NCBI RefSeq assembly: GCF_009914755.1
Contig: NC_060947.1
Length of the DNA stretch: 64,000 nucleotides
From: the human T2T-CHM13v2.0 reference genome, Homo sapiens
Reading direction: 5' to 3' (one strand)
Part shown: positions 25,600 through 42,608 of the stretch, one piece after another
Layout: every line of letters begins with the position of its first letter
Position numbering within the stretch: the first letter of the stretch is position 1
The notes under the pieces: model-generated
What the model was told of the DNA's origin: nothing
The model's database searches: none
The model's input: only the letters and a program-made list of their open reading frames with translations
Made by a program: the position numbers and the translations under genes

Positions 25600-26301
25600 A
25601 GAATAAGCTTGGATTTGGAAAGAATTTGAAAAGGAAAGTAGGAATACAATTGACTTTCCCAAGTTCATAGGTAGTAACAAAGAATGAGCAATAATCAAGA
25701 TGCCTTTGTTCTTATCTTTCCCCAACTCAAATAAGTTATATATAAAAATTCATTTCTTACTAGGTCCATTATACTTGTCTATCTCTTGAAAACTTGAGTG
25801 TCCTAATGAAATGAGACTTCTATTTTGTAAGATGAGAGAAAGGTGAGGCAAATATTCTGAGGCACCTTCTAGACTGCAGAGCAACATGCACTGAGTTTTT
25901 TGAAAGATTTACCAGTTTTAAAAAATAAATGCTGTCTTGTTCTTCATCATCCTCCCATCACTGGCATATCTTGGTAAAAGTGAGATGTTATCAGTGAGAG
26001 CCCTTTAGGTAGATCCTCGTAAAAGTTACCATTTTGAGAATTGTATTTATGATTGTTGGTGTGTTAACAAAATCATGTTGCAAGAGAAATGGACTTTTGG
26101 CTAACTGCCTAGCTCTATTATCCTAGAAACTAGTTAAATGGTATATGTCAACTATTTTATGATAAAAATGTCCCCCGTGGATGGATGAGATGTATCTAGG
26201 TTGGAAGAACCATAAATACTTGAGAAGAAGTCACAGCTTTGGGTGTTCCTAGGTGCAGGGACTCTTGATATGGGGCATATCCCTTGAAGGTCTTTGGAAG
26301 C

Positions 26302-26693
26302 TGTATTAGTCCATTCTCACATTGCTATAAAGAACTACCTGAGACTGGGTAATTTATAAAGAAAAGAGATTTAATTGTCTCATGGTTCCACAGACTGTAC
26401 AGGAAACATGGCTGGGGAGGCCTCAGGAAACTTATAATCATGGTAGAAGGCGAAGGGGAAAGCAAACATGTCCTATGTGGCTGGAGCAGGAGGAAGAGAG
26501 CAAAGAGCGAGGTGCTACACAACCAGATCTCCTGAGAACTTACTCACTATCATGAGAACAGCAAGGGGAAAATCTGCCTCCATGATCATGTCTAAATTGC
26601 ATGTCAGATTGTAATTCCCAGGCCCTTCCTCCAATACTGGGAATTACAATTTGACATGCAATTTAGACAGTGACACAAATCCAAACCATAACT
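26302..26693 (-). mobile_element. MSTA-like MaLR LTR (3' LTR of the composite element)
   Basis: tgtattagtccattctcacattgctataaagaactacctgagactgggtaatttataaagaaaagag...acaaatccaaaccata. Confidence 0.9.
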
Positions 26694-27503
26694 TTCCGTC
26701 CCTGGCCCCTCCCAAATCTCATGTCCTTCTCACATGGCAAAATACAAGTATCCCTTCTCAACAGTCCCCCAAGTCTTAACTTATTCCAGCATTAACTCAA
26801 AAGTCCGCAGTCTGAAGTCTCATGTGAGACAAGGCGAGTCCCTTCTACCTATGAGCCTGTAAAATAAAAAACAAGTTAGTTAATTCCAAGATACAATATG
26901 TCTTGGCTATTAGCATTCGGCTCCTCTTTACTTATGCAAATCTCTGCAGCCAGCTTGAGTACTCCCCAGAAAACAGGTTTTTCTTTTCTACCACATGATC
27001 AGGCTGCAACTTCTCCAAACTTTTACCCTCTGCTACCCTTTTAAATATAAGTTCCAGTTTCAGATCATCCCTTTGCTCATGCATATGCTGTTAGAAGCAG
27101 CCAGGCAACATCTTGAATGCTTTGCTGCTTAGAAATTTCTTCCACCAGATACTCTAAATCGTCTCTCTCAAGTTCAAAGTTCCACAGATCCCTAGAGCAG
27201 GGGCACAGTGCTGACAGTCTCTTTGCTGAAGCATAACAAGAGTGACCTTTGCTCCAGTTCCCAATAAGTTCCTCATCTTCATCTGAGACCACCTCAGCCT
27301 GGGTTTCATTGTCCATATCACTATCAGCATTTTGGTCACAACAATTTAACAAGTCTCTAGAAAGTTCCAATCTTTCCCTCAGCTTCCCATCTTCTTCTGA
27401 GCCCTCCAACTGTTCCACCCTCTGTCCATTAACCAGTCCCGAAGCTGCTTCCACCTTTTCAGGTATCTTTATAGCAATGTCCCATTTCCCAGTACCACTT
27501 TTC
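26694..27503 (-). mobile_element. MST internal sequence, internally deleted (~0.8 kb)
   Basis: Polypurine tract (minus strand gggaggggccagggacggaa) next to the MSTA LTR, and a PBS-like gaaaagtggtactgggaaatggg at the other end. ORF 27077-27454 is the MaLR gag-like remnant (EELIGNWSKGHSCY...LCPCSRDLWNFELERDDL). Confidence 0.9.
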
Positions 27504-28032
27504 TGTATTAATCAGGGTTCTCCAGAGGGACAGAACTAATAGGATATGTGTATATATCAGAGGAAGTTTATTAGGGAGAACTGGCTCACATGAACCCAAG
27601 TCAAAGTCCCCAAAAGTCTCCAAGCTGGGAAAACAAGGAAATAGTAGTGGCTCAGTCCGAGTCCAAAAACCTCAAAAGCGGGGAAGCCAGCAGTGCAGCC
27701 TTCAGTCTGTGGCTGAAGGGCTGACAGCCCCCAGCAAATCACTGGTGTATGTCCAAGAGCCCAAAGGCCAAAGAACCTGGAGTCTGATGTCCAAGGGCAG
27801 AAGACTCCACAAGCCAGCTTATCCCACCTTCTTCTGCCTGCTTTGTTCTAGCTGCACTGGCAGCCAGTTGGATGGTGCCCACCCACATTGAGGGTGGATC
27901 TTTCTCTCCTATTCCACTGACTAAAATGTCAATCTCCTCTGGCAACACCCTCACAGACACACTCAGAAACAATACCAGCTAGCTAGGCATTCTGCAATCC
28001 AATCAAGTTGCCACCTAATATTAACCACTACA
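27504..28032 (-). mobile_element. MLT2A (A2-like) HERV-L LTR, in the 5' LTR position of the MST internal sequence
   Basis: tgtattaatcagggttctccagagggacagaactaatagga...ggcaacaccctcacagacacac...caatccaatcaagttgccacctaatattaaccactaca. Confidence 0.88.
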
Positions 28033-30209
28033 GAAGCTGTCAGTGGTGTTGTCCTGAATGACGTTGGCCTGTACCTGTTAGGGTGATAGCTCTTCTAAAT
28101 CAGAACAATTTCCCCATCTCAATAATGTGGATCTGTTTCCTTGAACCTAAACTGTGTCTCTGAGGGTATAGCTTCCAGAGGGCTGTGTGAGCTGTCATAC
28201 ACATGAAATGCAGCAAGGACTCTTATGGAGAGGACCTCTATCACCTGACGTAGTTTCTGAGAAGACTCATGGCAACAGCGCCTATCATAGTTTTGAGTGT
28301 CTGAATGTTTAATTAAATCTACAGTGACCCCTTGGAGGGTGATTGAATGATATTTCTCTACTCTCCAAATATGCAACTTCGTTCTTACCCTCTGCATCAT
28401 CATTTATAAAATAGAAAGACTAGAGCTGGTTTTCTCCAGGTGTGGATCTCTGATAATCCTCAGCAGAGTCACTTGGGATACAGATTCTCAGGTCTCAACC
28501 AAGAGAAATTAAATCAGGATCTTTGAGGTTAGGGTCCTGTAATCTTCTTTTTTAACACCTTCTCCTCCCCATGGTACTTGAATACACAGCTGGACAAGAT
28601 GCTCATTAGTTTATTTTCTATTTTAGCCCTTGACCTTATAATTCTAATGATTTGTTCCTCCCATTCTACATAATGTCTTAATGCAATTCAAATCTCATTT
28701 CTTCAGAAGACCATCAAGGAATAAATAACTGGGAGTTTCAGAAATGGCAACAGTTTAGGGAAAATCTCTGTAGTTAAGTCAGGTTTGAGAAACCCCTGGA
28801 ACAATTTGTTGTAATTGTATACTTTTTTAAAGATCCTTTTGGTCCCCTGTAATCCTTATGATTATTAAAACATACAGGTCCTTAGCACCATATAACGATT
28901 CTGTTTAAACTGTTGGCTTTTCTTTTTTTTCAACATGCTATCACCATTGTCACTGTTGCCTTGACTGTAGGGTAGTGACTTGCTAGAAGGTCAGAGATTA
29001 TATTAGGTCTTACCAAACAAGTGAAAATCAATATTTTCACTCTCTTTAGGAGAATGAGTTTCATATATACTCGAGATGAAAGAAAAATTCCCTTTGTTGT
29101 TCTGCTGAAGTTGTCAAGCCTTCCATTAGTCTAGGTTAAGTTTCTGGGGTTATGAATTTAATTTTGGTTTCTAATATTGATTTATATTTCATAAAGACTT
29201 TGTTGGTTACAAAAAAAAAATCCTCAGTAAATTTTTCTACTTCAAGGGCAGTGCTTTAGTTTAGAAAAAGATGTGTTTCTCAGTGATTTAGTTTCCATTT
29301 CTGGACTTAACAATAATGAGTGAAACAGGAAATTTTGCTGTGAATTATGAAAGGTTATTATACAGTATTTCCAAGCCACTCAAAATTATGCATTCATCTT
29401 AGGCTCTTAAATTTAACAAAACTGAATGAGATTCAATACTATTTTCTCTGTTTTATCAAAATGTTATTGAAAGTTGTTTAAGATTTTATACTCCTCGAGG
29501 GCACATATCTTTTGTCATCTTTGCATTTTCAGTAGTGTTTTTATACTGCAGATAATTTATGCACATTTTATAAATGAGTGAACAAATAGATGTTATGAAA
29601 AAAAAGTACTGTTATCAGATTCCAGGATAAAGTAAAAAGCAATATTTAGCAATCCTCCATATACTACAATGCCCTACCCAAGCCTGTTAATTCCACTCCT
29701 CATCCTCATCCTGCCACAAACATTTTCAGAAGTCCTCAGACATCTCTGCTATATTCCCTAACTTGCCCCAAACTCCCGTGATCCAAAAGTAGGCTTCCCT
29801 TTCTCAATTAAACTTCCCTTTCGCTCAGTACCCCAATCTGAGCTTGCTATCCTGCGGAGAGTTACCTGGGAAATGAAGAGATGCAGCTGTATGATATATA
29901 TGAACAAGTTTACCCTTACTGGGGAGATTTGTATTTTAAAAGATGGTGATGGAAAACTACAGTGATATATACATGCTAACTTTTCCCAATGTTCAAATTT
30001 CAGGTAGTGGGACATATGGCAAAGGTATTTTTCAATAGCAACCTAAAGACCTCTCAGGGAGGTGACCTCCTTTTCTGCCTCCAAGTATTGCTGGTTCTGC
30101 TATAACCTGATATGATTTTTTATTTATAGAGTGCTTTTTATAAGTTGCCTTCTTCAGGAAACATAAAAGAGTGGGAGGGGAAATGAATAATCTCTCATGC
30201 TTTTGTATC

Positions 30210-42080: not shown

Positions 42081-42608
42081 TCTGGCTGTTCTTGTATTGC
42101 TATAAAGAAACAACAGACCAACTAATTTCTAAAGAAAAGAGGTTTAATTGGCTCACAGTTCTGCGGGCTTTACAGGAGGCATGGTGCTGGCATCTGCTCG
42201 GCTTCTGGGGAAGCCTCATGAAGTTCACAATCGGCGCAGAAGGTGAAGGGGGAGCGGACACGTCACATGGCTTATGATTAACGTATAGAAGCTTTCTATT
42301 GAATTATGTATGTTTTCACTCAGCTGGTGCCTGGTTTTACATTAATATAACTTACCGGGCATCAACAACTTCTGAGCAAGGAGCAAGAGCAGGAACGAGA
42401 GAGAGAGAGGGAGGTGCTACCTGCCTTTAAACAGATCTCACGAGAACTAACTCACTATCGCAAGGACAGCAGCAAGGGGATGGTGCTGAACCATTTGTGA
42501 TAAATCCACTCCCATGAGCCAGTCACCTCCCACCAGGCCCACTTTCCAATACCAGTGATTATAATTCACCATGATATTTGGGTGGGGAGAAATATATAAG
42601 CTACATCA
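42081..42608 (-). mobile_element. MST (B-like) MaLR LTR interrupted by a ~104-bp non-LTR insert at 42272-42375
   Basis: aaagaaaagaggtttaattggctcacagttctgc...ggcatctgctcggcttctggggaagcctca...ccagtcacctcccaccaggcccac. Confidence 0.88.

What the first reader, a model, noticed from the sequence alone, without database searches (positions are those of the whole stretch)
26297..28037. One integration with two different LTRs: MaLR (MSTA) body with a HERV-L (MLT2A) 5' LTR inside a single TSD
Seen in the sequence: GAAGC (26297-26301), MSTA LTR, PPT, MST internal, PBS, complete MLT2A LTR, GAAGC (28033-28037). The MLT2A LTR begins exactly where the second MST LTR should be, in the same orientation, and the outer ends share a 5-bp TSD. 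Established: reverse transcription normally makes the two LTRs identical, ERVL and MaLR elements make 5-bp TSDs, and MaLRs lack pol and are thought to use ERVL machinery. Inference: MST and HERV-L RNAs were co-packaged, and plus-strand strong-stop DNA from HERV-L transferred onto the MST minus strand. The transfer would use the shared U5 end (TAATACA) or the PBS. This would be a molecular fossil of MaLR parasitism of HERV-L particles. Caveat: the spacer next to the LTR (gaaaag) looks MST-like, so the switch point would be at the U5 terminus. Later recombination plus a chance 5-bp match is the alternative.
Basis: partly seen in the sequence, partly recalled or inferred. Interest (0 to 1): 0.8.

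Follow-up and report, generated by a model that had tools for sequence, protein, structure and literature searches.

The report
MaLR element with borrowed HERV-L LTR
An ancient non-autonomous retroelement in a human chrX intron carries one long terminal repeat of its own family and one from a different, HERV-L-type family inside a single target-site duplication, and similar hybrids recur elsewhere in the genome, which fits the two element types having been reverse-transcribed together.

Summary
On the minus strand the order is GAAGC, a complete 529-bp MLT2-type LTR, a 6-nt spacer, a tRNA-Leu(UAA)-type PBS, a MaLR internal region with a deletion of about 0.8 kb, a 392-bp MaLR LTR, and GAAGC again. 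The two LTRs are unrelated. Both have TG..CA-type ends.

A strict 5/5 target-site duplication (TSD) occurs in 3 of 27 copies of the right-LTR family and in 1 of 702 shuffled flank pairs.

The new result is that the architecture is not unique. At least 12 other independent loci join a MaLR internal region at the PBS to an MLT2-type LTR. In all 3 where the far end is visible, the 3' LTR is MaLR-type. One reciprocal junction exists. No 3'-side swap was found, against 1027 typical 3' junctions.

Crossovers fall in two short homologies shared by the families, the U5 end and the PBS. This locus keeps the MaLR-type spacer.

Best reading, about 0.68: one integration of a chimeric cDNA made while both templates shared a particle. 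The exact strand-transfer step is inferred. Subfamily names (MSTA, MLT2A) and orthologous empty sites could not be checked.

The parts
26297..26301 (.). Left copy of the 5-bp target-site duplication, GAAGC
   Evidence: It is identical to 28033-28037. A strict 5/5 match was seen in 1 of 702 shuffled flank pairs.
26302..26693 (-). 3' LTR, MaLR (MST/THE1) type, 392 bp. U5 end at 26302; U3 start at 26693, where TG reads AG.
   Evidence: the 39 other best scored matches are all full-length at 77-80% identity; the same U5 end lies next to the PBS at 1414 sites; the typical LTR/internal 3' junction motif.
26589..26669 (+). 33-nt-arm hairpin inside the MaLR LTR, annotated MIR4666B
   Evidence: arms 97% complementary. 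Hub annotation; only sub-threshold Rfam matches (mir-1267, 52.9 bits against a gathering score of 70).
26694..27479 (-). MaLR internal region. A purine-rich tract lies next to the 3' LTR at about 26694-26713. About 812 bp of the centre are missing between 26898 and 26899, relative to L013.
   Evidence: 84-88% identity to typical MaLR internal regions. The deletion was mapped against L013 (3587 to 4400).
27480..27497 (-). Primer binding site. Matches 12 of 18 to the complement of the 3' end of human tRNA-Leu-TAA.
   Evidence: compared with the tRNA sequence printed in PMC10359600. Less decayed copies match better (L013: 17 of 18).
27498..27503 (-). 6-nt spacer between LTR and PBS. MaLR type (window strand CTTTTC against the family's ATTTTC).
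   Evidence: (typical MaLR spacers ATTTAC/ATTTTC) against (HERV-L-type AAATC)..
27504..28032 (-). 5' LTR, MLT2 (ERV-L) type, complete, 529 bp, TG...CA
   Evidence: full-length alignment to 29 copies, and a terminal branch of 0.095 against a median of 0.090. L065 and L040 carry this LTR type next to the HERV-L-type leader.
28033..28037 (.). Right copy of the 5-bp target-site duplication, GAAGC

Best explanation
This is one integration event of a chimeric retroelement cDNA. The body, the spacer, the PBS-side sequence and the 3' LTR come from a MaLR (MST-type) RNA. The whole 5' LTR comes from a HERV-L-type element with an MLT2-type LTR.

In the standard reverse-transcription scheme both LTRs of one cDNA are copied from one minus strand. 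Two unrelated LTRs therefore need a second template in the same particle. The 5' LTR is laid down at the plus-strand transfer step. If plus-strand strong-stop DNA, or an equivalent plus-sense template, from a co-packaged HERV-L-type genome is used there, the product is exactly this: foreign 5' LTR, own body, own 3' LTR.

The exchange is guided by two short homologies that the families share: the last roughly 10 nt of U5, and about 15 nt of the tRNA-Leu(UAA) PBS. At this locus the crossover lies in the U5 end, because the spacer is MaLR-type. In most other hybrids it lies in the PBS.

Shown: the anatomy, the TSD, the recurrence, the reciprocal junction and the 5' polarity. Inferred: co-packaging and the exact strand-transfer step.
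For: 1. A perfect 5-bp TSD sits at canonical LTR ends. A strict 5/5 match occurs in 3 of 27 real copies and in 1 of 702 shuffled pairs.

2. The join is exact to the base at LTR end / spacer / PBS.

3. The architecture recurs.
- 8 junction-spanning hits among 40 scored. Three of them are paralogous copies, 94-97% alike.
- 1 more.
- 3 more.
- L046.
- chrX:37.87 Mb.
- Total: 12 independent loci besides this one.

4. Their internal regions are not one clone. They are 81-87% alike to each other and 82-88% to a typical element. The best hits for L013's internal region are typical MaLR elements at 85-87%.

5. In 3 of 3 hybrids whose far end is visible (L013, L014, L017) the 3' LTR is MaLR-type. L013 has a 4/5 TSD.

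6. One reciprocal junction exists: HERV-L-type leader and spacer next to a MaLR-type LTR end.

7. Polarity. The 5' hybrid pattern gave 4 hits against 558 typical. The 3' hybrid pattern gave 0 against 1027 typical.

8. Both families share a PBS that matches the complement of tRNA-Leu-TAA.

9. The two LTRs look equally old. Their best genome matches are 78-80% and 78-79% identical. The right LTR's terminal branch is typical of its family.
Against: - The spacer at this locus is the MaLR 6-nt type, not the donor's 5-nt type that a plain PBS-mediated plus-strand transfer predicts. An additional switch in the U5 end, or heteroduplex resolution, must be assumed.
- Of the three hybrids whose TSD could be read, one (L017) matches only 2/5.
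- TSDs of the other 9 loci could not be read.
- From recall, not from any passage read here: plus-strand transfer is usually described as intramolecular in model retroviruses.
- No orthologous empty site was examined.
- That the partner elements encode HERV-L gag-pol was not verified here (searches gave nothing).
Confidence: 0.68

Rival explanations
1. The hybrid arose by chromosomal ectopic recombination after integration. A HERV-L-type provirus and a MaLR element in the same orientation recombined at the short U5-end/PBS homology, deleting what lay between. The GAAGC match is then chance.
For: The families share about 10 nt and about 15 nt of homology around the spacer. One other hybrid (L017) shows no TSD. 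This route would also be 5'-specific.
Against: - It needs a roughly 1-in-1000 coincidence at this locus and a 4/5 match at L013.
- The homology tracts are far shorter than those that usually support non-allelic recombination (established knowledge, recalled).
- Recurrence at 12 or more loci would need as many suitably placed element pairs.
Confidence: 0.12
2. The hybrid is a chimeric cDNA formed before integration, but by another route. For example, the MaLR minus strand could anneal to the PBS of a co-packaged HERV-L RNA and continue on it, with the left end set by plus-strand priming. Or two finished cDNAs could recombine before integration.
For: The same facts as for the best explanation: the TSD, recurrence and crossovers in the shared homologies. 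A route with several template exchanges would account for the MaLR-type spacer more easily.
Against: These routes need more steps to produce a complete foreign LTR that ends exactly at its U3 start. No data here separate them from the plus-strand-transfer route.
Confidence: 0.12
3. Separate events produced the structure. An older solo MLT2-type LTR and a later MaLR insertion lay next to each other, followed by deletion of the MaLR 5' LTR. The TSD match is chance.
For: Nested and adjacent insertions are common. Most copies of this LTR family are solo.
Against: - The join is exact at LTR end / spacer / PBS.
- The same exact join recurs at independent loci.
- The solo LTR's own inner TSD copy is absent, and the 5/5 outer match would be chance.
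Confidence: 0.03
4. The hybrids belong to a self-propagating family that kept an MLT2-type 5' LTR and a MaLR 3' LTR through rounds of retrotransposition.
For: Several loci share the architecture.
Against: - Reverse transcription regenerates two identical LTRs, so the arrangement cannot be inherited (standard scheme, passages read in PMC3187697).
- The hybrids' internal regions are no closer to each other than to typical elements.
- Spacer types differ among them.
Confidence: 0.03

Closest known systems
MaLR elements (MST-int / THE1-int with MST or THE1 LTRs)
   Same: The 3' LTR, the internal region, the 6-nt spacer, the Leu-type PBS and the 5-bp TSD are as in typical copies.
   Different: The 5' LTR is not a MaLR LTR. 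About 812 bp of the internal region are deleted.
HERV-L proviruses with MLT2 LTRs (family and LTR names as tabulated in PMC5753468, passage seen)
   Same: The 5' LTR has the same ends, and the same LTR type lies next to the HERV-L-type leader in L065 and L040. The 5-bp TSD and tRNA-Leu(UAA) PBS core also match.
   Different: There is no HERV-L-type leader or internal sequence. The spacer is 6 nt rather than 5 nt. The 3' LTR belongs to another family.
Recombinant ERVs and mosaic proviruses (e.g. HARLEQUIN; mosaic forms in PMC4724089 and PMC5753468, passages seen)
   Same: Sequence from two retroelement families sits in one element.
   Different: Those are described as internal mosaics or secondary integrations. 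Here two whole, unrelated LTRs bound one body within one TSD, and the swap is confined to the 5' LTR.
Chimeras between a non-autonomous LTR element and its autonomous partner (rice Dasheng/RIRE2; mouse ETn/MusD)
   Same: Hybrids between parasite and helper are taken as a sign of co-packaging and template switching.
   Different: This comparison is recalled. For Dasheng/RIRE2 I saw only a search listing. For ETn/MusD I saw nothing. The host, the families and the whole-LTR swap at the PBS differ.

Membership tests
MaLR non-autonomous LTR element | MaLR-type LTR with the characteristic U5 end next to the spacer and PBS | tested here: met
   The left LTR matches 39 genomic copies end to end at 77-80%. 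Its U5 end is the one at 1414 PBS junctions. This holds for the 3' LTR only.
MaLR non-autonomous LTR element | Short internal region of MST/THE1 type, without pol | tested here: met
   84-88% identity to many typical internal regions. The 3' junction motif is as in 1027 typical sites. The internal part is 810 bp.
MaLR non-autonomous LTR element | Two LTRs of the same family | tested here: not met
   The 5' LTR has no similarity to the 3' LTR and belongs to another family.
ERV-L (HERV-L) LTR, MLT2 group | LTR type found as the 5' LTR next to the HERV-L-type leader, with a 5-bp TSD | tested here: met
   L065 and L040 carry this LTR type next to the leader shared by about 22 of 30 sampled junction loci.
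ERV-L (HERV-L) LTR, MLT2 group | Match to the curated MLT2A model (Dfam/Repbase) | not testable with these tools
   No repeat library was on hand. The LTRs that flank most junction-bearing proviruses align to this one only at positions 1-54 and about 322-524, so the subfamily is probably not theirs.
ERV-L (HERV-L) LTR, MLT2 group | Partner proviruses encode ERV-L gag-pol-dUTPase | tested here: inconclusive
   Pfam on 16 ORFs from the first 1.5 kb gave nothing relevant. The Atlas gave nothing. None of the 150 best dUTPase hits lay near the listed junctions.
Single retroviral-type integration | Matching 5-bp TSD at TG...CA ends | tested here: met
   GAAGC on both sides. The match rate is 1 of 702 in shuffled pairs.
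Single retroviral-type integration | Empty orthologous site with one copy of the TSD | not testable with these tools
   No other primate genome was available.
Reverse-transcription recombinant between co-packaged templates | Crossovers at shared homology, reciprocal products, polarity as the strand-transfer scheme predicts | tested here: met
   Crossovers lie in the U5 end or the PBS. One reciprocal junction exists. The 5' patterns gave 4 hybrid against 558 typical, and the 3' patterns 0 against 1027.
Reverse-transcription recombinant between co-packaged templates | Direct demonstration of co-packaging | not testable with these tools
   This needs an experiment. See the referred step.

The most novel reading that the evidence does not exclude
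Whole-LTR swaps between MaLR and HERV-L-type elements form a systematic class. They make up roughly 1% of detectable 5' junctions, occur in both directions, and affect only the 5' LTR.

If so, they are direct fossil evidence for two things. First, MaLR RNAs were packaged and reverse-transcribed inside HERV-L particles. Second, these particles often made two cDNAs that exchanged strong-stop DNA.

The pairing of LTR subfamilies in each hybrid would then show which HERV-L lineage mobilised which MaLR subfamily, and when.
Probability: 0.5. Interest if true: 0.72.

Novelty: new variant of a known kind. Interest (0 to 1): 0.6.

Why it matters
MaLRs make up about 4% of the human genome and have no pol gene (PMC10735291, introduction read). 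A mouse-focused paper calls them nonautonomous and dependent on endogenous retroviruses for their expansion (PMC5538554, passages). The 2023 primate MaLR history mentions neither HERV-L nor MLT2. It states that recombination was not considered.

Hybrids bounded by one TSD would turn the assumed MaLR/ERV-L partnership into something countable. Each hybrid pairs a helper LTR subfamily with a parasite subfamily at one moment in time.

They would also be natural examples of proviruses with two different LTRs. The standard scheme does not produce these.

For annotation, such loci should be read as one insertion, not as two neighbouring repeats.

Tried and rejected
- **Pfam on the partner elements.** I scanned 16 ORFs from the first 1.5 kb of HERV-L-type partners. 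There was no retroviral domain, only weak DivIVA noise.
- **ESM Atlas.** One 215-aa ORF gave no usable hit.
- **dUTPase search.** A genome-wide dUTPase (PF00692) search was meant to tie the junction loci to ERV-L pol. None of the 150 best hits lay within reach of the listed junctions, so it was uninformative.
- **More sequence from the genome.** I tried to fetch further hybrid and typical loci, to read their TSDs and to date the left LTR. The attempts did not succeed. TSDs are therefore known for only 3 hybrids, and the left LTR's terminal branch could not be computed.
- **Smit 1993.** The paper is not held under its PubMed id.
- **Is the arrangement in print?** Six searches found no description of MaLR/HERV-L hybrids. 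The library lacks most subscription journals, and no supplements were read.
- **Direct repeat 27428-27447 / 28020-28039** (85%). Judged chance. The first copy is ordinary MaLR internal sequence.
- **The extra TGT after each GAAGC** (an 8-nt match). Judged chance: 1 in 64 beyond the TSD.
- **A clonal hybrid family.** Rejected.
Full report
**What is there**

The window is human chrX, inside an IL1RAPL1 intron (hub annotation). The genome search places it at contig 23, 29,140,001-29,204,000. One search shows the following order on the minus strand:
- GAAGC at 28037-28033.
- A 529-bp LTR running from 28032 down to 27504, with TG...CA ends.
- A 6-nt spacer (27503-27498).
- An 18-nt primer binding site (27497-27480).
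- About 790 bp of internal sequence.
- A 392-bp LTR (26693-26302).
- GAAGC at 26301-26297.

The two LTRs have no detectable similarity to each other (E<=1e-3).

**The left LTR and the body are ordinary MaLR**
- The left LTR's 39 other best scored matches are all full-length, at 77-80% identity (40 scored of 7356 candidates).
- The 5' 450 nt of the internal part match many elements at 84-88%. Those alignments stop about 10 nt into the LTR.
- The LTR end / spacer / PBS arrangement of such typical elements occurs at 1414 exact pattern sites. Their spacers read ATTTAC or ATTTTC on the window strand.
- The internal/3' LTR junction motif occurs at 1027 sites.
- Two of the closest relatives of this body, at chr1:50.10 Mb and chr1:53.45 Mb, carry the ATTTTC spacer. 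The first also has an LTR end identical to this element's 3' LTR end.
- Relative to L013, about 812 bp of the centre are missing.
- I recall this LTR and body as MST/THE1-type. The label MSTA was not tested.

**The right LTR belongs to another family**
- Its 39 best other matches are full-length copies of 518-600 bp, at 72-79% identity.
- In the 29 fetched, none has MaLR internal sequence beside it. Most are solo LTRs.
- After dropping two apparent duplicate copies (L064, L076), I scored flanks at strict boundaries in the remaining 27. They match 5/5 in 3 and at least 4/5 in 10. In 702 shuffled left/right pairs, 5/5 occurred once and at least 4/5 in 2.8%.
- A three-point distance estimate gives this copy a terminal branch of 0.095. 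The median of the others is 0.090. It is therefore an average-aged member.
- Copies of this LTR type (L065, L040) sit next to a 5-nt spacer (AAATC on the window strand), a PBS and a leader. That leader is shared by about 22 of 30 sampled loci among 142 exact LTR-end/PBS pattern hits.
- That leader does not BLAST to MaLR internal sequence.
- Most of those 30 loci have a shorter LTR that aligns to ours only at positions 1-54 and about 322-524. Ours is therefore a different LTR subfamily of the same group.
- I take these elements to be HERV-L with MLT2 LTRs. This rests on recall and on the family table in PMC5753468 (passage). Attempts to see gag-pol or dUTPase failed.

**Shared priming site**

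The 3' end of human tRNA-Leu-TAA is printed in PMC10359600 (passage). Its complement is the PBS.
- L013 matches it at 17 of 18 positions.
- The HERV-L-type elements match over the first 15.
- This locus matches at 12 of 18.

The two families therefore share about 15 nt of PBS and the last roughly 10 nt of U5. They differ in the spacer between these two blocks: 5 nt against 6 nt.

**The architecture recurs**
- A 261-nt query across our junction returned 8 other hits that span it, among 40 scored of 2597 candidates.
- Three of those 8 (chr10, chr4, chr2) are paralogous copies, 94-97% alike, and count once.
- A longer query added chr7:31.09 Mb.
- The L013 junction added chr11:21.65, chr4:133.69 and chr1:49.38 Mb.
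- Sampling the 30 pattern loci added L046. It also gave L045, whose internal part is only distantly MaLR-like and is not counted.
- A pattern for MaLR-type spacer plus MLT2-type LTR end found 4 sites: this one, L013, chrX:37.87 Mb and chr11:74.95 Mb. The first three also carry the MaLR internal motif. The last is not counted.
- The total is 12 independent loci besides this one. It is a lower bound, because each search scores only 40 candidates.
- Four of the 12 are known only from an alignment that spans the junction.
- Their internal parts are 81-87% alike to each other and 82-88% alike to a typical element.
- L013's internal part finds typical elements at 85-87%, better than other hybrids at 82-83%. 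They are therefore not copies of one hybrid.

**Far ends and TSDs of the other hybrids**

Three hybrids show their far end (L013, L014, L017). In all three it is a MaLR-type LTR that abuts the MaLR internal 3' end.
- L013 has CTTGC and CCTGC, a 4/5 match.
- L017 matches 2/5.
- L014's 5' LTR is truncated.
- L011, L012 and L046 are cut by deletions or L1 insertions.
- The remaining loci could not be fetched.

**Where the switch lies**
- L011, the L012 group, L017, L046 and chr11:21.65 Mb have the HERV-L-type 5-nt spacer or a one-base variant of it. L014's 5-nt spacer differs from it at two bases.
- This locus, L013 and chrX:37.87 Mb have the MaLR-type 6-nt spacer.
- Crossovers therefore fall in the PBS block or in the U5-end block.
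- One reciprocal junction exists at chr15:56.01 Mb: HERV-L-type leader, PBS and spacer next to a MaLR-type LTR end.

**Polarity**

With matched patterns:
- The 5' hybrid form gives 4 hits against 558 typical.
- The 3' hybrid form (MLT2-type U3 start next to the MaLR internal 3' end) gives 0 against 1027 typical.
- The MLT2 U3-start motif is present in 16 of the 29 fetched copies and the U5-end motif in 11 of 29 (my count from the printout). The zero is therefore not due to a weaker motif.
- At the 5' rate I would expect several 3' hits.

**Interpretation**

In the standard scheme both LTRs are copied from one minus strand (passages read in PMC3187697). An element with two unrelated LTRs inside one TSD therefore needs a second template before integration.

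A foreign plus-strand strong-stop DNA annealing at the shared PBS predicts several things:
- a foreign 5' LTR;
- the element's own body and own 3' LTR;
- the donor's spacer;
- no 3' swaps;
- a reciprocal class.

All of these are seen in the class. This locus deviates only in its spacer. That requires the exchange to lie in the shared U5 end. One way is for the MaLR minus strand to first copy its own spacer and then move to the foreign strong-stop DNA. This step is my inference.

Chromosomal recombination at these short homologies would also be 5'-specific. However, it needs the perfect TSD here and the 4/5 TSD at L013 to be chance. Nested insertion with deletion cannot explain an exact join that recurs.

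**Age**

The best genome matches of both LTRs are equally distant: 78-80% for the left and 78-79% for the right. This is compatible with one insertion time. It is a weak test.

**In print**

Six searches and the passages read gave no description of such hybrids. The passages were from PMC4724089, PMC5753468, PMC6894440 and PMC5538554. For PMC10735291 I read the introduction and discussion. The last of these does not mention HERV-L or MLT2 and says that recombination was not considered. The library is incomplete and no supplements were read.

**Verdict**

This is one member of a recurrent class of 5'-LTR swaps between MaLR and HERV-L-type elements, most likely made during reverse transcription in a shared particle. 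The decisive check is the orthologous empty site.

Noticed in passing
window 26589-26669: A near-perfect hairpin (33-nt arms, 97% complementary) lies inside the MaLR LTR and is annotated MIR4666B. Rfam gives only sub-threshold matches on both strands (mir-1267, 52.9 and 50.6 bits against a gathering score of 70). Full-length alignment of other copies suggests the palindrome is a family feature.
   Followed up: partly
G000 contig 15, 56,009,654-56,009,691 (minus strand): A reciprocal junction: HERV-L-type leader, PBS and 5-nt spacer directly next to a MaLR-type LTR end. It is the only exact hit of that pattern.
   Followed up: partly
G000 contig 23, 37,867,153-37,867,202: A second chrX hybrid, 8.7 Mb away. 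It has the MaLR internal motif, the exact MaLR-type spacer, and an MLT2-type LTR end. It is known from the pattern match only.
   Followed up: partly
L012, L015, L016 (contigs 10, 4, 2): One hybrid element is present in three copies that are 94-97% alike and share flanking repeats. This is a segmental duplication that carries the hybrid. An L1 3' end interrupts its internal region.
   Followed up: partly
L043 / L044 (contig 3, about 6,002,826 and 6,002,988): Two LTR-end/PBS junction matches lie 162 bp apart on the same strand. This suggests a local duplication of the U5-PBS region in one provirus.
   Followed up: no
L029 (contig 1, about 238,311,346): A MaLR LTR in the opposite orientation abuts the PBS of a HERV-L-type junction. 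It is probably a nested insertion rather than a swap.
   Followed up: no
L045 (contig 3, about 15,889,838): A diverged MLT2-like LTR with the 5-nt spacer sits next to an internal region that is only distantly MaLR-like. It could be an older hybrid, or a separate non-autonomous lineage with ERV-L-type LTRs.
   Followed up: no
window 42096-42480: Another MaLR LTR fragment lies in the window, 75-77% identical to parts of the left LTR.
   Followed up: no
window 26297-26304 and 28033-28040: The match at the two ends extends to 8 nt (GAAGCTGT), because the right flank happens to continue with the first three bases of the LTR. Judged chance.
   Followed up: yes
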